A stretch of 64,000 nucleotides of DNA from a virus (IMGVR_UViG_3300015214_000024:201787-265786); one strand, 5' to 3'; positions 9,676 through 39,957 are shown, counted from the stretch's first letter. Program-made: numbers and translations. Notes: generated by a model from the letters alone, not told the origin.

Positions 9676-9679
9676 TTAT

Positions 9680-9786
9680 GTATAGTAAGATCCCAGGGCG
9701 GGTCGACGGATAAATCCACAGTATTCATTTAATGAATATGCTAATGGTATCGTTTTAGGTTGGTTCGATCCCAGCACTATACACCA
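9680..9786 (+). ncRNA. tRNA-like RNA with expanded anticodon arm
   Basis: GTATAGT/ACTATAC acceptor, ACCA end, T-arm GTTGG-TTCGATC-CCAGC, no 7-nt anticodon loop. Confidence 0.7.
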
Positions 9787-9873
9787 ACCAAAGATGCGTA
9801 GGATGCAGATACTTCGATACTTTGTCTCGTACACAAACCAAAAAAAGACTGTATTCGCTTTTATCACTTTGGT
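9787..9873 (+). ncRNA. YrlA/Y-RNA-like repeat copy 1 (anticodon-like hairpin only)
   Basis: GCGTAG...TACTTCG...TTCG...TTTATC scaffold with closing stem. Confidence 0.7.
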
Positions 9874-9880
9874 AATTATT

Positions 9881-10024
9881 TTGATCAGTAGCGTAGGATT
9901 GGGTTACTTCGATTGCAACTCGACCGATGGGGGTTCGATTCCCTCTTCCTCCACAAACTTTATGGGGGAATAGCTTAATGGACAAAGCGGTAAAATTTCT
10001 CGATTCGCCTTTATCTCTGATCAA
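9881..10024 (+). ncRNA. YrlA/Y-RNA-like copy 2 with circularly permuted tRNA-Cys(GCA)
   Basis: order: anticodon arm, T-arm, 3' acceptor, loop, 5' acceptor, D-arm, inside the scaffold. Confidence 0.85.
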
Positions 10025-10032
10025 TCTTTTAT

Positions 10033-10135
10033 GGGGATGCTGGACGCGCCAGCCCTGGGAACCCGGGGTATCCCGCAATTTAAATTAATTTGCTTTGCGC
10101 GCGGCGAGACGGTTCAATTCCGTTTATCTCCACCA
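10033..10135 (+). ncRNA. tRNA-like RNA with Ala identity and no canonical anticodon arm
   Basis: GGGGATG/TATCTCC (G3:U70), ACCA, T-arm. Confidence 0.65.
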
Positions 10136-11543: not shown

Positions 11544-11676
11544 TAATCCAGTAGCGTAGGATACAGATACTTCGGTAAAACTTTTGTCTCAGAAACAAAA
11601 CTAGTTGGTTCAAATCCAACAAATATTCCCCGAAAAGGAATATATGTTCTCTGTGTTCGGTCTTATCTCTGGATTA
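11544..11676 (+). ncRNA. YrlA/Y-RNA-like copy 3 (anticodon-like hairpin, T-arm, extra hairpin)
   Basis: same scaffold; TTTTGT-CTCAGAA-ACAAAA, GTTGG-TTCAAAT-CCAAC. Confidence 0.75.
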
Positions 11677-11755: not shown

Positions 11756-11897
11756 AAAAACCAGCAGCGTAGAAATGAGTTACTTCGACTGTTAATCGAC
11801 TGGTTGTGGGTTCGAATCCCACTCTCTCCTCCACTATGGAGAGATAGCTCAATGGTAGAGCGGTAAATTTCTTGTTTCGATTTTTTCTCTGGTTTTT
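11756..11897 (+). ncRNA. YrlA/Y-RNA-like copy 4 with circularly permuted tRNA-Asn(GTT)
   Basis: TCGA-CTGTTAA-TCGA, T-arm, TCTCTCC-TCCA, loop, GGAGAGA-TAGCTCAATGGTAGAGC. Confidence 0.88.
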
Positions 11898-15341: not shown

Positions 15342-15896
15342 TTATGAAAGGATCGTTATGAACATTTATAAAATGTTGGATGAGTTCCCGTATGGGATTG
15401 TGGTCCTTGAGGGGGATTATGTTAAGCATATTTGTCTTTATCCTTCAATGCCCACACAAGCTGATGCTGAAGGATTGTACGATGAACTTCAAAAAGATCC
15501 GGAGCACGGAATGATTGGTGAAGATTTATCCAAGATGAATTTTTGTCCAGCCTCTGGCGAATTATTAAAAGAAGCTATAAGGGCATTTTCAAGTGAAAGC
15601 TATGAATAATAAGGATTTTGTAGAATATACCACTGATCCAGATTTATGGCCAGATCTTGTTGAGATCAGTGATATTTTAGTACGCTTCCCATTTTATATG
15701 AAATGTGATCAGTTCTCAGATGCGGTGTTATTGGCTGAACAATTTGACCGATATTTTGAAGACCAAGATTTGTTTATGGTGTGCAGACAATATGATAATT
15801 TTGTTTTCTTTGAGTCAGAAGAAGCAAGGGCTATTGCGGCAATAATTAAATAAAAGTAGTTGACAGACTATAAATAACATAGTAGATTATACAAAT

Positions 15897-15971
15897 AACC
15901 AGCAGCGTAAAATACGGTTACTTCGTTTATTTGGAAAACACACCGTACTGTATTTGACTTTATCTCTGGTT
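15897..15971 (+). ncRNA. YrlA/Y-RNA-like copy 5 (minimal scaffold)
   Basis: CCAGCAGCGTAA...TTACTTCG...TTTATCTCTGG, downstream of TTGACA and TATAAATA promoters. Confidence 0.75.
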
Positions 15972-15974
15972 TAT

Positions 15975-31125: not shown

Positions 31126-32358
31126 ATGTTAATGTCGGTTCACATTTTTGGCGGTGGAACCTTTTTTCACGTTCGCAACCATATGGCGCTTTGCGCACCA
31201 GCATTTGGTAAAACTGCTCGATATATTAATACCTTTTATGACGATGCATTCTTGCATTTGACAAAAATGGCTGATCCAAATTCAATTCTTGATACCAATG
31301 AAGATGTTGAATATAAGCTTGATAAGCTCATTGAGGATCCTTATTGCAAGATCATCTATTTCAATGTTGCACTTTGTGATTATGAGGGATCTATCTTGGA
31401 TGGCACTCTTGAAGATTGTATAACTCCATCAGGAAAATACGCTCCTCGACTTAAAACTCGAGAAGGTCTACAGCATATGCGCCTCACGCCGGCAGCTAAG
31501 TTGATTGGCAAGATTCGCAAGACTCGCAAGGATATTTTTGTTGTTGGATTTAAGACGACCTGCAACGCAACACCTGATGAGCAATATCTTGCAGCATTGA
31601 ATATGTTGAAAGAAAATTCTATCAACTTGGTTCTCGCGAACGATACAGGTAATCGTCGAAATATGATTGTTGCTCCAGAAGAAACTCGCTATTGCGTTAC
31701 TACTGATCGAAATAAAGCACTTACAACTTTGGTAGAAATGACCAATAGCAGGTCTCGAAACACTTTTACCCGATCGACGGTAATTGATGGCGATCTTGTT
31801 CCTTGGAATTCAAATGAAATTCCTGACAATTTGCGACAGGTGGTCAATCACTGCATCAAAAGAGGAGCATACAAGCCCTTCCGGGGATCAACTGCTGGTC
31901 ACTTTGCAGTCAAGGTGAATGAACACGAAGTTTTGACATCTGTTCGCAAGACAAATTATAATGATTTGGATAAAAGCGGATTGGTTCGAATTGAATACGA
32001 CGGTCTCGATAAAGTCATTGCGCACGGCGCGAAGCCAAGTGTTGGAGGTCAGAGTCAGAGAATTGTGTTTGACGAGCATCCAGATTTGGACTGTATTGTA
32101 CATTTCCATTGTCCTACTAAGGAAAATGTTCGTGATTCGCTATCACACGTGGATCAGGCGCCATCAGAATGCGGGTCACACCAATGCGGGTCAAGAACAT
32201 CAAAAGGATTAAAGTCTTTTGGGAATCTGGAAGCAGTGATGCTTGATAATCACGGGCCAAATATTGTCTTTTCTAAGGATACCCCAGCTCAAGAAGTTAT
32301 TGATTTTATTGAAGCAAACTTTGATCTTGAAGCTAAGACTGGTGGCTTGGTAAGTTAA
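31126..32358 (+). CDS. CoaB/DFP-like ligase domain fused to class II aldolase-like domain
   Basis: GGGT, NVALCDY, VVGFK, LVLAND; C-terminal KPSV, IVHFH, NHG. Confidence 0.7.
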   Translation: MLMSVHIFGGGTFFHVRNHMALCAPAFGKTARYINTFYDDAFLHLTKMADPNSILDTNEDVEYKLDKLIEDPYCKIIYFNVALCDYEGSILDGTLEDCITPSGKYAPRLKTREGLQHMRLTPAAKLIGKIRKTRKDIFVVGFKTTCNATPDEQYLAALNMLKENSINLVLANDTGNRRNMIVAPEETRYCVTTDRNKALTTLVEMTNSRSRNTFTRSTVIDGDLVPWNSNEIPDNLRQVVNHCIKRGAYKPFRGSTAGHFAVKVNEHEVLTSVRKTNYNDLDKSGLVRIEYDGLDKVIAHGAKPSVGGQSQRIVFDEHPDLDCIVHFHCPTKENVRDSLSHVDQAPSECGSHQCGSRTSKGLKSFGNLEAVMLDNHGPNIVFSKDTPAQEVIDFIEANFDLEAKTGGLVS

Positions 32359-33200
32359 TTCTTACCAAGCAACTCTTTCCAAGTAATTTGAATTCCGCGT
32401 TTTTTGTAAGCCTCGACTGGATTTGAATAAACTCCGGTTGGGGTTTCATTATTTCTAAAATATGTCAACCATTCTCTTGATGTTTTTGAATTTGTTGATT
32501 TGAAATATTCTTTAAATTCATCCAATGGCATAATATTTTCCATATAACGTTGTGATAATGCTTCTTGTGCTTTAATTTGGGCCTCCGTTTTTGGCAATCC
32601 TTTTCTTTTTAAAGACCATCGCTTTTTAGTTTCTTCGGAATGTTTATAGCCTTTACGCTTTTCGGCAATTTCTTTATATTGCTCGTCAGACAACAATTTT
32701 CGTCCCTTTAATGAATTGCTAATTTTTTTCTTTGTTTCTTCGGATATGGTGCGCCCTTTTTGATGTTGTGGGGCCGCCATCTGTGCTTCAGTTTTTGGTT
32801 TACCTTTTCGCTGTTGGCTTAATAATTGCTTGGTAGATTCTGAATGAATCATTCCAGCAGTGCTTTCGCCACCATTCGTTAAGTTACTCAATGGCCCTAA
32901 ATTTAAATTATATCTTCCAATAACTTTAATGAAATGTATTTCCCACAATTGTGCTTCTTGTTTGGAAAGATTTTCTTTTAATTTAATAATTATCGGTTTC
33001 TGGCCTAAATCTAATATATGTTTAATTTTTCCATTTTTTATAGGATTACAATTAGAATTCAAGCTGTCAGTTTTTAAATGAGCTTGATATCGTTTACCTT
33101 TGCCCATTCCAATATAAAATGGCTCAAAATCAAAATTTTCTCCATTATAAGAAAAATTTCCTGGCTTTCTTGGATCTAAATATGCGTAAACATAAAACAT
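32355..33200 (-). CDS. GIY-YIG-type homing endonuclease with NUMOD3 repeats
   Basis: FYVYAYLDP...FYIGMG, NLTNGGE, SEETKKK repeats. Confidence 0.88.
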   Translation of the reverse strand: MFYVYAYLDPRKPGNFSYNGENFDFEPFYIGMGKGKRYQAHLKTDSLNSNCNPIKNGKIKHILDLGQKPIIIKLKENLSKQEAQLWEIHFIKVIGRYNLNLGPLSNLTNGGESTAGMIHSESTKQLLSQQRKGKPKTEAQMAAPQHQKGRTISEETKKKISNSLKGRKLLSDEQYKEIAEKRKGYKHSEETKKRWSLKRKGLPKTEAQIKAQEALSQRYMENIMPLDEFKEYFKSTNSKTSREWLTYFRNNETPTGVYSNPVEAYKKRGIQITWKELLGKN

Positions 33201-34203: not shown

Positions 34204-34268
34204 GCAGTCTTAGTTTAAGATAAAATATTGATTAATCAATGATCTAGGTTCAAATCCTGGCGACTGTA
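34204..34268 (+). pseudogene. degenerate tRNA lacking an anticodon loop
   Basis: GCAGTC/GACTGT acceptor, T-arm, collapsed ATTGAT-TA-ATCAAT arm. Confidence 0.55.
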
Positions 34269-34571: not shown

Positions 34572-35951
34572 ATGTTTAGCACTATGACTTTGGCCATTGG
34601 TGGCATTGTCCTAGCAGCATTTGTAGGTATTCTATTTTTTGCTGCTTTGATTTTCCGCCGCGTGGTCCCAACAAATATGGTACATATCGTTCAGTCGTCT
34701 AAAAAGACTGTTTCATATGGCCGTGGACGTACTGAAGGTAATACGTATTACGAAATTCCTTCTTCGATTCCTTTTTTCGGTGTTACTGTTACTCAGTTCC
34801 CAGAATCAGTTTTCGATATTAACTTGAAAGATTATGATGCTTACGACGTTGATCGTTTGCCATTCCTAGTCGACGTTCGTGCGTTCTTCCGCATTAGCGA
34901 TTCACAGATTGCCGCCCAGCGCGTTTCGAACTTTAATGAGCTTCGTGACCAGCTTTCAGGTGTCCTCCAGGGCGCTATCCGTAACGTTCTTGCACAATAT
35001 ACACTTGATCACATTATGAGCGACCGCGCAACTCTTGGTAAACAGTTCTCTGATGTTGTTGATGGTGGCTTGACTGAATGGGGTGTTTCAACCGTCAAGA
35101 CGATTGAATTTATGGACATTCGTGATGCTCGCGATTCACAGGTTATCCACAATATTATGGCTAAGAAAAAGTCATTTATTGAAATGGAAAGCCGTATTGA
35201 AGTTGCTAACAACAAACAGGCTGCTGAATCAAAAGAAATCGAAGCTCAGCGTCAGATTGCCCTTTCAAAGGCAGAAGCTGAACAGACTGTTGGTATTCGC
35301 GAAGCTGAGCGTGACAAGACTGTTGGTATTGCTAACGAAAAGTCAAACCAGGAAGTTCAGGCTGAAGCAAAGGTGACTACTGAACGCCAGATGGAAGTTC
35401 GCAAGGTTGCCGAAGTTAAGCAAGCTGAAATCAACCGCGATGTTGCTGCCGTTAAGGCAGAACAGGACCAAAAGGTTCAGGTCATTGCTGCTGAGGCTGA
35501 TAAAGAATCACAGATTCAAATCGCCGAAGGTAAGTTGGAAGCTACTAAGAAAGAAGCACAAGGTGTTGAAGCTCTTGGTAACGCTAAGGCCGAGGCTGAA
35601 AAGGCACTGTTGCTTGCACCAGTTAACGCCCAGTTGACTCTTGCTAAGGAAATTGGTGAGAATGAAGGTTACCAGAAATATCTCATCGAGATCCGTAAGG
35701 TTGAAGCTGGTGAAAATGTCGGTAAGGAAATGGCTGGTGCGATGTCACAAGCTGACCTTAAGATCATTGCCAACAGTGGTGATGTACAGGGCGGCATTGG
35801 AAAATTGGCTGATGTGTTTACCCCAGCCGGTGGAACCAGCCTTGCTGGTATGTTGAGCGCATTTGCTCAAACTCCTGAAGGCGCCGCAGTAGTTGAGGGT
35901 ATCACAGCAAAGCTTAATGCCCCTGCTGAAACCGGTAAGAAAGCTAAGTAA
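34572..35951 (+). CDS. SPFH/flotillin (band 7) membrane protein
   Basis: N-terminal TM, SPFH domain, AE-rich coiled coil. Confidence 0.9.
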   Translation: MFSTMTLAIGGIVLAAFVGILFFAALIFRRVVPTNMVHIVQSSKKTVSYGRGRTEGNTYYEIPSSIPFFGVTVTQFPESVFDINLKDYDAYDVDRLPFLVDVRAFFRISDSQIAAQRVSNFNELRDQLSGVLQGAIRNVLAQYTLDHIMSDRATLGKQFSDVVDGGLTEWGVSTVKTIEFMDIRDARDSQVIHNIMAKKKSFIEMESRIEVANNKQAAESKEIEAQRQIALSKAEAEQTVGIREAERDKTVGIANEKSNQEVQAEAKVTTERQMEVRKVAEVKQAEINRDVAAVKAEQDQKVQVIAAEADKESQIQIAEGKLEATKKEAQGVEALGNAKAEAEKALLLAPVNAQLTLAKEIGENEGYQKYLIEIRKVEAGENVGKEMAGAMSQADLKIIANSGDVQGGIGKLADVFTPAGGTSLAGMLSAFAQTPEGAAVVEGITAKLNAPAETGKKAK

Positions 35952-37374: not shown

Positions 37375-38259
37375 TTAAAGATACTTCTTCTTAATTTCCA
37401 TCCAAGATGTTTTAATTCCTCTTCTTGAATATGCCACTATCGGATTTCGTGGTATGTTGTTAGGAAGTGGATTGTTATTAATATATTCTTGCCATTTTGA
37501 ATAACTATTGACATTGATAGATTTTAGAAAAAATAGAAAATCTTCGAAACTGATATAGTTTTCTCTTAATTTCTCTTTAGTCTCATCTGAAAGTTTTTTA
37601 CCAAGATTGGCCTTTCGTAGTTTTTCTTTAACGCTGTCAGGTCTTGTTCTACCTGTCAATGCTACTCTTATCTTTTCAATAGACTCAGCTGATGGCTTGG
37701 CTCGATTTATTGCTGATCGTCTAAGTATTTCTTTGGTTTTTTCAGAAGCTTTAGATCCTTTTTTAGCCTTACTTATTTTGGCTTTAGCTTCATCAGTATG
37801 ACCTTTGCCCAATCGCGCAGCTTGTATGGATAAAACTTGCTTTTCGCGATAAACTGGATCATTCCACTTGGAAGTTTGTATTTCACTTTTAGTTTTGGCA
37901 ACATTATTTTTAGCGTAGTTCTTCTTATAAGTAGTTTTTTGTTTTTCGATACTACGTTCATCATTATAGAAATTAGTTCTACCGATTTGCTTATTAAGCC
38001 ACTGGTTTGAACTGTGACAATGAAAACACTCTTGAAATTTAATTTCTAAATTTATGATCTGATCAACACCGCCAGCAGCTAAGATTTCAATCACATCTGG
38101 CTCGCCATTAAATGCTCGGAATTCTTTCACATAATGACTTGATGTGAAATATGTTTTCCATAAATTTGATGGATGAGCACTTTTTCCATATTGGCATCCA
38201 ACATACCATTTGTCTATTTTAGACCATCCAATTATGTAAAGATAAGGCAAATTTTCCAT
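37375..38259 (-). CDS. homing endonuclease (GIY-YIG variant) with NUMOD3 repeats
   Basis: YLYIIGW...WYVG, YFTSS, NUMOD3-like repeats. Confidence 0.82.
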   Translation of the reverse strand: MENLPYLYIIGWSKIDKWYVGCQYGKSAHPSNLWKTYFTSSHYVKEFRAFNGEPDVIEILAAGGVDQIINLEIKFQECFHCHSSNQWLNKQIGRTNFYNDERSIEKQKTTYKKNYAKNNVAKTKSEIQTSKWNDPVYREKQVLSIQAARLGKGHTDEAKAKISKAKKGSKASEKTKEILRRSAINRAKPSAESIEKIRVALTGRTRPDSVKEKLRKANLGKKLSDETKEKLRENYISFEDFLFFLKSINVNSYSKWQEYINNNPLPNNIPRNPIVAYSRRGIKTSWMEIKKKYL

Positions 38260-39806: not shown

Positions 39807-39957
39807 AAACCTAGTAGCGTAGGAATGAGATACTTCGATAGGAAAACCTTCGTGTCGCTGGTTCGATTCCAGCTCTCCCCACCAGCTTTTATGGGGAGAT
39901 AGCTCAGACGGTAGAGCAGAGGAAAGAAAAACTTGTTTCGCTTTTATCTCTAGGTTT
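39807..39957 (+). ncRNA. YrlA/Y-RNA-like copy 6 with circularly permuted Phe-like tRNA
   Basis: scaffold; T-arm, TCTCCCC-ACCA, loop, GGGGAGA-TAGCTCAGACGGTAGAGC. Confidence 0.85.

What the first reader, a model, noticed from the sequence alone, without database searches (positions are those of the whole stretch)
11756..11897. Complete circularly permuted tRNA-Asn(GTT) with intact anticodon loop and encoded CCA
Seen: order is anticodon arm (TCGA-CTGTTAA-TCGAC), variable loop, T-arm, TCTCTCC-TCCA, 4-nt linker, GGAGAGA, D-arm, GGT. Joining ...GAGCGGT to CGACTGTT... restores a perfect 5-bp GTCGA/TCGAC stem. No ordinary tRNA-Asn occurs in the window. Inference: RNase P (encoded at 30.1 kb) could open the acceptor loop to give a two-piece CCA-ended RNA, or excision and ligation could give a true tRNA as for permuted tRNA genes in algae and archaea. 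It could also be a nuclease decoy.
Basis: partly seen in the sequence, partly recalled or inferred. Interest (0 to 1): 0.82.

Follow-up and report, generated by a model that had tools for sequence, protein, structure and literature searches.

The report
Phage Y RNA shaped like tRNA-Asn
The "rearranged tRNA-Asn" is real, but it is most likely the tRNA-shaped middle of a Y RNA, the small partner RNA of the giant phage's own Ro60 ring protein, and not a working tRNA gene; it is unusual in keeping an Asn-type anticodon loop and a built-in CCA end.

Summary
Observation confirmed. Window 11786-11833 plus 11838-11864 re-permute into a 75-nt cloverleaf that ARAGORN calls tRNA-Asn(GTT).

Interpretation partly supported. 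The element is one of seven copies of a conserved scaffold in a 455-kb phage genome: outer stem, GCGUAG, inner stem, UUACUUCG, then a variable module. The genome encodes a Ro60/TROVE protein, and one copy lies directly 5' of that gene.

- Rfam's YrlA (Y RNA-like) model matches full length at 40.5 bits, the same range as Ro60-adjacent mycobacterial YrlAs.
- A covariance model of 22 relatives gives 92% paired cells and 32 of 38 pairs with compensatory changes.
- 47 of 50 viral records carrying the same hairpin-plus-T-arm signature encode Ro60.
- The phage has four ordinary tRNA-Asn genes just upstream of the window.
- It has no RtcB, no splicing endonuclease and no RNase P RNA.

Across 67 relatives found without constraining the loop, the hairpin keeps U33, R37 and A38, while positions 34-35 vary. 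GUU is the second commonest triplet. None of the 67 has an encoded CCA; the target does.

RNase P opening has a precedent in M. smegmatis YrlA. The scan reached the same reading earlier for the neighbouring Cys copy.

The parts
11756..11767 (+). Outer stem, 5' strand (AAAAACCAG, bulged C, AG); pairs with 11887-11897
   Evidence: MFE fold. Helix 1 in the 22-member alignment has 7 of 9 pairs with compensatory changes and 92.7% paired cells.
11767..11772 (+). GCGUAG motif in the internal loop between outer and inner stem; a variant of the Ro60-contact motif GNCGAAN0-1G / CGAA
   Evidence: Near-invariant in scaffold copies. Relatives with the identical hairpin carry GCGAAG or GCCGAAG at this position. 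Motif definition from PMC4201824 and PMC12135203.
11772..11779 (+). Inner stem, 5' strand (GAAAUGAG); pairs with 11871-11878
   Evidence: Helix 2: 8 of 8 pairs with compensatory changes, 95.5% paired.
11780..11787 (+). UUACUUCG junction motif (contains the YUAY motif conserved in YrlA RNAs)
   Evidence: Invariant ACUUCG in alignment A2. YUAY is described in PMC4201824. UA forms the kink in the Salmonella YrlA crystal structure (bioRxiv 312249).
11785..11799 (+). Anticodon-arm-like hairpin (the 'V' stem-loop of YrlA nomenclature): UCGA / CUGUUAA / UCGA; loop 11789-11795, GUU at 11791-11793
   Evidence: The identical 18-mer occurs in at least 14 otherwise divergent Y RNAs. Loop rules hold across 67 relatives. 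Anticodon-like hairpins occur in 18 of 39 members against 1.56 expected.
11800..11805 (+). C43 (can pair with G27 at 11863) and 5-nt variable loop UGGUU
   Evidence: The 27-43 column pair is GC 9, CG 4, UA 2, UG 1, unpaired 4 in A4. That alignment is fitted to the model.
11806..11822 (+). T arm (GUGGG UUCGAAU CCCAC)
   Evidence: Helix 5: 100% paired, 4 of 5 pairs covary. Matches the YrlA and tRNA models.
11823..11833 (+). Acceptor 3' strand UCUCUCC, discriminator U, encoded CCA
   Evidence: N-CCA after a 7-nt acceptor strand occurs in 0 of the 73 distinct relatives listed (the 67 of the unconstrained scan plus copies from the GUU-specific scans). In the scaffold-defined alignment A4, by my own reading of the rows, five carry it, all from G000 and G001.
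11834..11837 (+). CUAU linker closing the acceptor stem; resembles the 5' leader of this phage's pre-tRNAs; predicted RNase P site between 11837 and 11838
   Evidence: TAT at -3..-1 in 23 of 69 phage tRNAs, 2.8% expected. RNase P cleavage is inferred from M. smegmatis YrlA.
11838..11846 (+). Acceptor 5' strand GGAGAGA plus U8 A9
   Evidence: Helix 6: 7 of 7 pairs covary, 92.2% paired.
11847..11861 (+). D arm (GCUC AAUGGUA GAGC)
   Evidence: Helix 7: 95.1% paired. Identical to the YrlA consensus D stem.
11862..11870 (+). G26 G27 U28 and the AAAUUU trailer junction; GGUAA can alternatively pair with UUACU (11780-11784)
   Evidence: Energy comparison: YrlA-style fold -38.5, true cloverleaf anticodon stem -33.0 kcal/mol.
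11871..11878 (+). Inner stem, 3' strand (CUUGUUUC)
   Evidence: helix 2.
11879..11886 (+). U-rich 3' side of the internal loop (GAUUUUUU)
   Evidence: Conserved UUCG..UUUAUC block in the scaffold copies.
11887..11897 (+). Outer stem, 3' strand (CU CUGGUUUUU)
9787..9873 (+). Paralogous scaffold copy whose module is only an anticodon-like hairpin (loop CUCGUAC)
9882..10023 (+). Paralogous copy with a Cys-type (GCA) hairpin and full tRNA-like module (no CCA: ACAA)
   Evidence: 120.5 bits with R1.
11545..11675 (+). Paralogous copy directly upstream (loop CUCAGAA; T arm and closed acceptor; reduced D arm)
   Evidence: 64.4 bits.
15896..15972 (+). Short paralogous copy without a tRNA-like module (YrlB-like)
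   Evidence: 42.1 bits.
39808..39956 (+). Paralogous copy with tRNA-like module, ACCA and GCUUUUAU linker; anticodon position closed by a tetraloop
   Evidence: 116.5 bits.

Best explanation
Window 11756-11897 (+) encodes a Y RNA of the YrlA type, made by a 455-kb phage that also encodes its own Ro60/Rsr protein.

The paired 5' and 3' ends form the part that Ro60 would hold: outer stem, an internal loop carrying GCGUAG, then an inner stem. The middle is a tRNA-shaped module in the order natural to YrlA RNAs: anticodon-like hairpin, variable loop, T arm, acceptor stem closed by a short loop, D arm. That order is why it reads as a circularly permuted tRNA. It is not a gene for a decoding tRNA-Asn.

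Shown here:
- the scaffold and all helices are conserved with compensatory changes
- the family co-occurs almost perfectly with Ro60 genes
- the hairpin obeys anticodon-loop rules across relatives
- the phage has four normal tRNA-Asn genes

Inferred:
1. Ro60 binds the scaffold (about 0.85).
2. Host RNase P cuts between U11837 and G11838. The module has a 7-bp acceptor stem, a pre-tRNA-like UAU leader and an encoded UCCA. The result would be two base-paired pieces with a CCA end after 3' trimming, as for M. smegmatis YrlA (about 0.5).
3. The hairpin presents a tRNA-Asn-type anticodon loop (C32 U33 G U U A37 A38) to some protein that reads anticodon loops, while Ro60 and an associated nuclease or repair enzyme are tethered to it (about 0.5; partner unknown).
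For: **Rfam.**
- RF02553 YrlA matches 11770-11889 over the full model at 40.5 bits, E 4e-8 to 6e-7.
- The same model gives 40.2-45.5 bits for three Mycobacteriaceae RNAs. Each lies directly 5' of a TROVE+Ro60-vWA gene.

**Scaffold copies and the Ro60 gene.**
- There are seven scaffold copies in the genome.
- One lies directly 5' of the 519-aa TROVE+vWA gene at G000:C1 174.7-176.2 kb.
- That protein's best solved relative is Thermus phage phiLo Ro60 (9KOP/9L5Y, E 6e-33, full length).
- phiLo Ro60 binds phage Y RNA-like RNAs (PMC12135203).

**Covariation (model R1, 22 members).**
- 92.0% of cells are paired, against 64.8% in shuffles and 42-46% with slid partners.
- 32 of 38 pairs have changes on both sides; 0 of 500 shuffles reach any measure.

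**Co-occurrence with Ro60.**
- TROVE is present in 10 of 13 records holding the scaffold. The 3 without are 13-52% complete fragments.
- TROVE is present in 0 of 3 records with chance motif matches.
- TROVE is present in 47 of 50 viral records holding ACUUCGA-N7-UCGA-N9-GGUUCRA, and in 15 of 16 that are at least 90% complete.
- In L083 and L142 the copies sit immediately 5' of the TROVE gene.

**The hairpin.** The search left the loop unconstrained; 67 distinct relatives resulted.
- U33 in 65, purine 37 in 66, A38 in 65, pyrimidine 32 in 57.
- Positions 34-35 take all four bases.
- G37 occurs only after G36: 11 of 13 against 0 of 54, Fisher 6e-11.
- The exact GUU hairpin 18-mer recurs in at least 14 divergent Y RNAs.
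- One is from a phage whose Ro60 is only 27% identical.

**Not needed for decoding.**
- Four tRNA-Asn(GTT) genes, all U1-A72/G73, against G1-C72/U73 in the module.
- The module is no closer to them (72%) than to tRNA-Lys (77%).

**Literature.**
- YrlA RNAs have T, closed acceptor and D arms in this order, plus a fourth 'V' stem-loop.
- M. smegmatis YrlA, with a 7-bp acceptor stem, is cut by RNase P and gets CCA (PMC4201824).
- The resemblance of YrlA to permuted tRNAs is noted in bioRxiv 312249.
Against: - The Rfam score is below the curated gathering score (40.5 against 69).
- The Ro60 gene is about 38 kb from this copy, not adjacent.
- The putative Ro60 motif is CGUA rather than the published CGAA.
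- No expression, binding or processing data exist for this uncultured phage.
- Nearest-neighbour energies favour pairing of UUACU with GGUAA (-38.5) over the true cloverleaf anticodon stem (-33.0 kcal/mol). In the unprocessed RNA the hairpin may therefore project as a side arm rather than stack as an anticodon arm.
- The alignment used for covariation was fitted to the model, which inflates pairing counts somewhat.
Confidence: 0.85

Rival explanations
1. A true circularly permuted tRNA-Asn gene. Leader and trailer are excised, the ends at 11864 and 11786 are ligated into a circle, and RNase P/Z opens the acceptor loop to give a decoding tRNA, as in Cyanidioschyzon merolae and Thermofilum.
For: - The re-permuted sequence is a flawless cloverleaf with CCA.
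- The phage encodes three Rnl2-family RNA ligase homologues.
- The literature raises this possibility for YrlA RNAs in general (bioRxiv 312249).
Against: - The leader/trailer junction has no bulge-helix-bulge geometry.
- The phage genome has no tRNA splicing endonuclease and no RtcB.
- Four ordinary tRNA-Asn genes are present.
- Acceptor-end features differ from all four.
- At least 14 relatives with the identical hairpin have acceptor stems sealed by tetraloops and no CCA, so they cannot become tRNAs.
- The flanks are a conserved, covarying, Ro60-linked scaffold rather than disposable spacers.
Confidence: 0.03
2. A two-piece (split) tRNA. After RNase P opening and trimming to CCA, the module is aminoacylated and acts in translation, or acts as a sink or sensor for AsnRS, with the scaffold only holding the halves together.
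For: - 7-bp acceptor stem, encoded UCCA, UAU leader and a GUU anticodon loop identical to tRNA-Asn loops.
- M. smegmatis YrlA acquires CCA in vivo.
- N-CCA after a 7-nt acceptor strand is absent from all 73 distinct relatives listed but appears in several paralogues of two huge phages. This suggests it is not accidental.
Against: - U73 and G1-C72 differ from the G73/U1-A72 shared by all four phage tRNA-Asn genes.
- A Ro60-binding stem branching from the anticodon stem should clash with the ribosome (inference).
- The predicted ground state sequesters G26/G27 in the scaffold helix.
Confidence: 0.07
3. Primarily a decoy or sponge. The displayed anticodon loop diverts an anticodon-loop-directed host enzyme (an anticodon nuclease or a modification enzyme) from real tRNAs. 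Ro60 would either be irrelevant or would dispose of or repair the cut RNA. This overlaps with the best explanation rather than excluding it.
For: - Loop positions 32, 33, 37 and 38 are held while 34-35 vary freely among paralogues and relatives, and the natural G36-G37 rule is kept.
- Reduced copies keep only the hairpin.
- The phage carries 69 tRNAs, a 2H phosphoesterase next to Ro60 and RNA ligases.
- Rsr/YrlA loci are linked to tRNA damage and repair (PMC7790460 abstract; bioRxiv 312249).
Against: - No nuclease or enzyme partner is identified.
- The GUU hairpin is identical in many distant phages. That fits a conserved housekeeping partner at least as well as an arms race.
- There is no experimental evidence.
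Confidence: 0.2
4. A functionless remnant of a rearranged tandem tRNA pair inside the tRNA island.
For: - The module looks like the 3' part of one tRNA joined by a normal spacer to the 5' part of the next.
- Model R1 positions 28-115 also hit real tRNA-tRNA junctions in the genome.
Against: - Every helix is intact.
- The flanks belong to a scaffold with compensatory changes across phages.
- The family tracks Ro60.
Confidence: 0.02

Closest known systems
Mycobacterium smegmatis YrlA (Chen et al. 2014, PMC4201824)
   Same: A Ro60-bound Y RNA whose tRNA-like module has a 7-bp acceptor stem. It is cleaved by RNase P at the tRNA 5' site and ends up with CCA. T arm precedes the closed acceptor stem, which precedes the D arm.
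   Different: - Here CCA is encoded rather than added.
- The linker mimics this phage's own pre-tRNA leaders.
- The hairpin 5' of the T arm is a perfect tRNA-Asn-type anticodon loop.
- The gene sits in a phage tRNA island 38 kb from Ro60.
- The Ro motif is CGUA, not CGAA.
Salmonella Typhimurium YrlA (Rfam RF02553; crystal structure 6CU1, bioRxiv 312249)
   Same: The same overall architecture and conserved D/T elbow nucleotides, YUAY motif and L-shaped tRNA mimicry. The 5'/3' stem continues from the anticodon-stem position to the Ro60 site.
   Different: Salmonella YrlA has a 6-bp closed acceptor stem, no anticodon loop and no CCA, and lies in the rsr-yrlBA-rtcBA operon. The target scores only 40.5 bits against the Rfam model.
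Thermus phage phiLo Ro60 with Yrl1/Yrl2 (PMC12135203)
   Same: A phage-encoded Ro60 (the closest solved relative of this phage's protein, E 6e-33) with phage-encoded Y RNA-like partners that have a stem, an internal loop with a CGAA-type motif, then a stem. It forms complexes with host PNPase.
   Different: The part of that paper read here does not describe a tRNA-like module for Yrl1/2 ('trna-like' 0 occurrences). Two RNAs lie next to the gene there, against seven dispersed copies here.
Circularly permuted tRNA genes of Cyanidioschyzon merolae and Thermofilum (Soma 2007; Chan 2011, as cited in bioRxiv 312249)
   Same: The 3' half precedes the 5' half, joined through a closed acceptor loop; leader and trailer pair.
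   Different: Those use a bulge-helix-bulge junction, a splicing endonuclease and a ligase, and they supply a tRNA that is needed. None of these holds here.
[quoted passage not shown]
   Same: A non-decoding tRNA-like RNA proposed to be functionally interchangeable with YrlA. This window also has a Band_7 gene (34572-35951) with a weak tRNA-like hit about 300 nt upstream.
   Different: b7a-tRNA is in normal tRNA order and has no Ro60 scaffold.

Membership tests
YrlA-type Y RNA (RF02553) | tRNA-like module in the order T arm, closed acceptor-like stem, D arm, with the conserved elbow nucleotides | tested here: met
YrlA-type Y RNA (RF02553) | 5' and 3' ends pair into a long interrupted stem that replaces or extends the anticodon stem | tested here: met
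   Outer and inner stems: 15 of 17 pairs with compensatory changes, 93-96% paired.
YrlA-type Y RNA (RF02553) | Ro60-contact motif GNCGAAN0-1G (CGAA core) near the 5' end | tested here: inconclusive
   The target has AGCGUAG (CGUA). Relatives with the identical hairpin have GCGAAG or GCCGAAG at the same position, so the motif looks homologous. Binding was not tested.
YrlA-type Y RNA (RF02553) | Conserved YUAY motif before the V stem-loop | tested here: met
   UUAC at 11780-11783; ACUUCG invariant in A2.
YrlA-type Y RNA (RF02553) | Encoded in a genome with, usually near, a Ro60/Rsr (TROVE) gene | tested here: met
   TROVE gene in the same genome, with a scaffold paralogue directly 5' of it. 47 of 50 and 10 of 13 related records have TROVE. 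This copy itself is 38 kb away.
YrlA-type Y RNA (RF02553) | Score at or above Rfam's gathering threshold (69 bits) | tested here: not met
   40.5 bits. Three Ro60-adjacent Mycobacteriaceae YrlAs also score only 40-46 bits, so the threshold is stricter than the family.
YrlA-type Y RNA (RF02553) | Physical binding to Ro60; tRNA-type modifications (psi55, D) | not testable with these tools
   Needs EMSA or RIP and modification mapping.
Circularly permuted tRNA gene (algal/archaeal type) | 3' half upstream of 5' half, joined through the acceptor loop; re-permutation gives a canonical tRNA | tested here: met
Circularly permuted tRNA gene (algal/archaeal type) | Bulge-helix-bulge motif at the leader/trailer junction | tested here: not met
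   The folds show a long helix with internal loops and no 3-nt bulge / 4-bp / 3-nt bulge arrangement at 11785/11864.
Circularly permuted tRNA gene (algal/archaeal type) | Splicing endonuclease and RtcB-type ligase available | tested here: not met
   PF01974 and PF01139 are absent from the phage genome while the control genomes gave matches. The host is unknown. Rnl2-family ligases are present.
Circularly permuted tRNA gene (algal/archaeal type) | Supplies an isoacceptor the genome otherwise lacks; carries its identity elements | tested here: not met
   Four tRNA-Asn(GTT) genes; the module has U73/G1-C72 against G73/U1-A72.

The most novel reading that the evidence does not exclude
The stem-loop called 'V' (variable arm) in YrlA Y RNAs may really be a displayed anticodon stem-loop. 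Positions 32, 33, 37 and 38, and the 36-37 rule, follow real tRNAs, while 34-35 are swapped among paralogues.

On this reading, phage Ro60-Y RNA particles are programmable baits or adaptors for proteins that read specific anticodon loops: anticodon nucleases, queuosine, t6A or m1G enzymes, or synthetases.

In this phage some copies, including the Asn one, have gone further and carry a processable tRNA 3' end. RNase P would convert them into nicked, CCA-ended full tRNA mimics.
Probability: 0.25. Interest if true: 0.75.

Novelty: new variant of a known kind. Interest (0 to 1): 0.5.

Why it matters
What the tRNA-like half of bacterial and phage Y RNAs binds is an open question; the effector of YrlA is unknown (bioRxiv 312249).

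This element and its roughly 90 relatives give a concrete handle. The hairpin next to the T arm behaves as an anticodon loop with a free triplet, and the Asn (GUU) version is kept letter for letter in distant phages. That narrows candidate partners to proteins that read anticodon loops, and it can be tested with simple loop swaps.

The target also looks like a snapshot of the proposed origin of YrlA from a tRNA dimer: 3' part of one tRNA, CCA, a normal spacer, then the 5' part of the next.

For annotation, it warns that 'permuted tRNAs' in phage tRNA islands are likely Y RNAs, and that Rfam's YrlA threshold misses them.

Tried and rejected
- A fixed-gap pattern joining the scaffold motif to the T loop found nothing in viral contigs. 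The gap is variable; a variable-gap version worked.
- The scaffold motif scan of genome contigs gave 108 loci, about what chance predicts. Only L063 and L083 had a 3' closure.
- Picking the lowest-energy hairpin per member was ambiguous, because G-U extended alternatives win. I replaced it with an existence test against shuffles and with the unconstrained-loop scan.
- Base-pair probabilities across members did not settle whether the 27-43 pair or the UAC/GUA pairing forms. The script's D-arm anchoring was also unreliable for some rows. I leave the three-dimensional position of the hairpin open.
- The RF02553 search of 151 Mycobacteriaceae genomes gave no hit above the gathering score. It was useful only as a calibration.
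- The module is not a recent copy of the phage's tRNA-Asn genes (72% identity).
- Two reviews (PMC6047535, PMC10870794) are not held. The tRNA-dimer origin model is cited second-hand from bioRxiv 312249.
- No promoter-like or terminator-like site beyond chance was found next to the element. It is probably co-transcribed with the flanking tRNAs (inference).

Full report
**What is there.**

Window 11756-11897 (+) reads, in order:
- a 9+2-bp outer-stem strand, then GCGUAG
- an 8-nt inner-stem strand, then UUACUUCG
- a hairpin UCGA/CUGUUAA/UCGA, then C-UGGUU
- a T arm
- UCUCUCC-U-CCA, then CUAU, then GGAGAGA-UA
- a D arm, then GGU-AAAUUU
- the complementary inner-stem strand, a U-rich stretch, and the complementary outer-stem strand

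Joining 11838-11864 to 11786-11833 gives a 75-nt sequence that ARAGORN calls tRNA-Asn(gtt), with every stem perfect and CCA encoded. In the native order neither ARAGORN nor Rfam at gathering threshold reports anything here.

**The element is not alone.**

The 5' flank motif CCAGYAGCGTAG occurs 8 times in the window with up to 2 mismatches, against 2.6 expected. Reading those places showed the same scaffold at 9882-10023, 11545-11675, 15896-15972 and 39808-39956, and later at 9787-9873.

The modules differ:
- Cys-type (GCA) hairpin plus a full tRNA-like body
- a reduced body with loop CUCAGAA
- no module at all
- a body whose anticodon position is closed by a tetraloop
- a hairpin only (loop CUCGUAC)

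A seventh copy lies at G000:C1:174352-174562, directly 5' of a 519-aa TROVE+vWA gene.

**Identity.**

In E-value mode Rfam's YrlA (Y RNA-like, RF02553) matches 11770-11889 across the whole model at 40.5 bits, E 4e-8 on the element and 6e-7 on 2.4 kb. That is below the curated 69 bits. The same model gives only 40.2-45.5 bits to three Mycobacteriaceae RNAs, each sitting directly 5' of a TROVE/Ro60-vWA gene. The score is therefore typical of divergent true YrlAs.

The window lies in a 455,147-bp viral record. Its TROVE protein is most similar, among solved structures, to Ro60 of Thermus phage phiLo (E 6e-33 over residues 5-510). That protein binds phage Y RNA-like RNAs and host PNPase (PMC12135203).

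**Relatives and covariation.**

Pattern scans found the scaffold in other viral contigs, often as tandem arrays: eight copies in L017, several in L141, L143 and L144. It also occurs in a Dehalococcoidia prophage, where three copies precede the TROVE gene, followed by terminase and portal genes.

I built a covariance model from 13 copies. It aligned 22 members at E<=1e-9. On that alignment:
- 92.0% of cells form standard pairs, against 64.8% in shuffles and 42-46% with slid partners
- 32 of 38 pairs change on both sides
- no shuffle reaches any measure

Outer stem, inner stem, T arm, acceptor stem and D arm are each supported. The alignment is fitted to the model, so these numbers lean towards the structure, but the gap to the slid controls is large.

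**Link to Ro60.**

TROVE is present in 10 of 13 records that hold the scaffold. The three without are fragments 13-52% complete. It is present in none of three records where the motif was a chance match inside other sequence.

I then searched viral contigs for ACUUCGA-N7-UCGA-N9-GGUUCRA, which says nothing about the Ro motif or the loop. It gave 71 loci, and 47 of 50 of their records encode TROVE, including 15 of 16 that are at least 90% complete. This is the strongest evidence that the element is a Ro60 partner RNA.

**The 'anticodon arm'.**

Chen et al. [quoted passage not shown]

In the 67 distinct relatives from the unconstrained scan:
- the 7-nt loop has U at position 2 in 65
- a purine at position 6 in 66
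- A at position 7 in 65
- a pyrimidine at position 1 in 57
- positions 3 and 4 take all four bases
- G at position 6 occurs only when position 5 is G (11 of 13 against 0 of 54; Fisher 6e-11)

From my own knowledge, the last point is the rule seen in real tRNAs (G36 with m1G37, U36 with t6A37).

In the scaffold-defined set, 18 of 39 members hold such a hairpin against 1.56 +/- 1.21 in shuffles, whereas other 7-nt-loop hairpins are at chance level (10 against 8.8).

The triplets are diverse: UGU 15, GUU 10, GCU 7, GAU 5, and 19 others. The exact 18-mer of the target's hairpin recurs in at least 14 otherwise divergent Y RNAs from viral and metagenome contigs. One is from a phage whose Ro60 is 27% identical to this one and whose Y RNA is 61% identical overall.

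So the GUU hairpin is a conserved type within the family, not a leftover of a local tRNA-Asn gene.

Where it sits in three dimensions is open:
- The 27-43 pair covaries (GC 9, CG 4, UA 2, UG 1), which fits a continuous anticodon stem.
- Nearest-neighbour energies prefer UUACU pairing with GGUAA, with the hairpin as a side arm (-38.5 against -33.0 kcal/mol).

**What is unusual in the target.**

None of the 73 distinct relatives listed has N-CCA after a 7-nt acceptor strand. That list is the 67 of the unconstrained scan plus copies from the GUU-specific scans. Their acceptor stems are closed by short loops such as UUCG, GCGA, GAAA and GCAA.

The target has a 7-bp stem, U73, CCA and a CUAU linker. 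By my own reading of the aligned rows printed, five members have this arrangement:
- two in this phage (the target and 39808-39956)
- three in the 358-kb phage of L017

The Cys copy has ACAA instead of N-CCA.

All these linkers end in UAU. TAT occupies -3..-1 of 23 of the phage's 69 tRNA genes (2.8% expected), and 45 of 69 encode CCA. The acceptor loop thus looks like a genuine tRNA-tRNA junction of this phage.

That fits the published proposal that YrlA arose from a dimeric tRNA transcript (cited in bioRxiv 312249). It also fits RNase P cleavage, which Chen et al. showed for M. smegmatis YrlA and attributed to its 7-bp acceptor stem.

**Why it is not a working tRNA-Asn gene.**

- The genome has 69 tRNAs, including four tRNA-Asn(GTT) genes at C1:194377, 194683, 195200 and 200174.
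- All four have U1-A72 and G73. The module has G1-C72 and U73.
- The module is no more similar to them (72%) than to tRNA-Lys (77%).
- The phage has no RtcB and no tRNA splicing endonuclease, although it has three Rnl2-family ligase homologues.
- The leader/trailer junction is a long helix with internal loops, not a bulge-helix-bulge.
Any cleavage would be by the host enzyme.

**Verdict.**

The element is a phage Y RNA of the YrlA family: a known kind, including in phages (PMC4201824; PMC12135203). The published literature already notes that YrlA RNAs look like permuted tRNAs.

The new features:
- It is a complete tRNA in permuted order, with a conserved Asn-type anticodon loop.
- It has an encoded, apparently processable CCA end.
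- It is one of seven paralogues scattered through a tRNA island.
- Family-wide, the 'V' stem-loop follows anticodon-loop rules.

Mechanism beyond Ro60 association is inferred. An earlier follow-up in this scan reached the same reading for the neighbouring Cys copy. I reached the Y RNA identification before reading it and tested its claims independently. One qualification follows: the triplet is not simply fast-changing, since the GUU version is widely conserved.

Noticed in passing
window 34204-34268 and 34572-35951: A weak tRNA-like hit (Rfam tRNA 40.5 bits, missed by ARAGORN) lies about 300 nt upstream of a 459-aa Band_7/SPFH gene. This recalls the 'band-7-associated tRNA' of RNA-repair loci, said to be interchangeable with YrlA (bioRxiv 312249).
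   Followed up: partly
window 9676-9786 and 10030-10135: Two tRNA-like bodies flank the Y RNA copies at 9787-10023. Each has a normal acceptor and T arm ending in ACCA/CCA but a much expanded D/anticodon region. ARAGORN does not call them; Rfam gives a tRNA hit at 27.8 bits for 9964-10132.
   Followed up: no
G000:C1:173820-174293 (L001:3-476), just before the Ro60 gene: A 2H phosphoesterase (2'-5' RNA ligase/LigT-like, with a weak Acb1 match) is encoded immediately upstream of the Ro60-proximal Y RNA copy and the Ro60 gene. Three Rnl2-family RNA ligase homologues lie elsewhere in the genome (C1:24.8, 51.6 and 340.3 kb).
   Followed up: partly
G000:C1 whole genome (15-313 kb): ARAGORN finds 69 tRNAs. 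They include two with a CUA anticodon (called Pyl; possible amber suppressors) and two odd calls with 4-nt and 2-nt anticodons at C1:183179 and C1:183417.
   Followed up: no
L017:3545-4965; also L143:1586-2622, L144:1887-2652, L141 (several): Other large phages carry tandem arrays of up to eight Y RNA-like genes within about 1.4 kb. The modules differ: some have CCA, some have sealed acceptors, some have no tRNA-like part.
   Followed up: partly
L153, L154, L157 (Mycobacteriaceae genomes): Rfam RF02553's gathering score (69 bits) misses Ro60-adjacent YrlAs, which score 40-46 bits. No hit above threshold was found in 151 Mycobacteriaceae genomes or in the 14 control genomes.
   Followed up: partly
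window 32355-33200 (-) and 37375-38259 (-): Two GIY-YIG/NUMOD3 homing-endonuclease-like genes lie on the minus strand within the otherwise plus-strand tRNA/Y RNA region.
   Followed up: no
G000 tRNA genes, positions -3..-1: One third of the phage's tRNA genes (23 of 69) are preceded by TAT and 45 of 69 by NAT, a strong leader preference that may reflect RNase P or transcript-processing requirements.
   Followed up: partly
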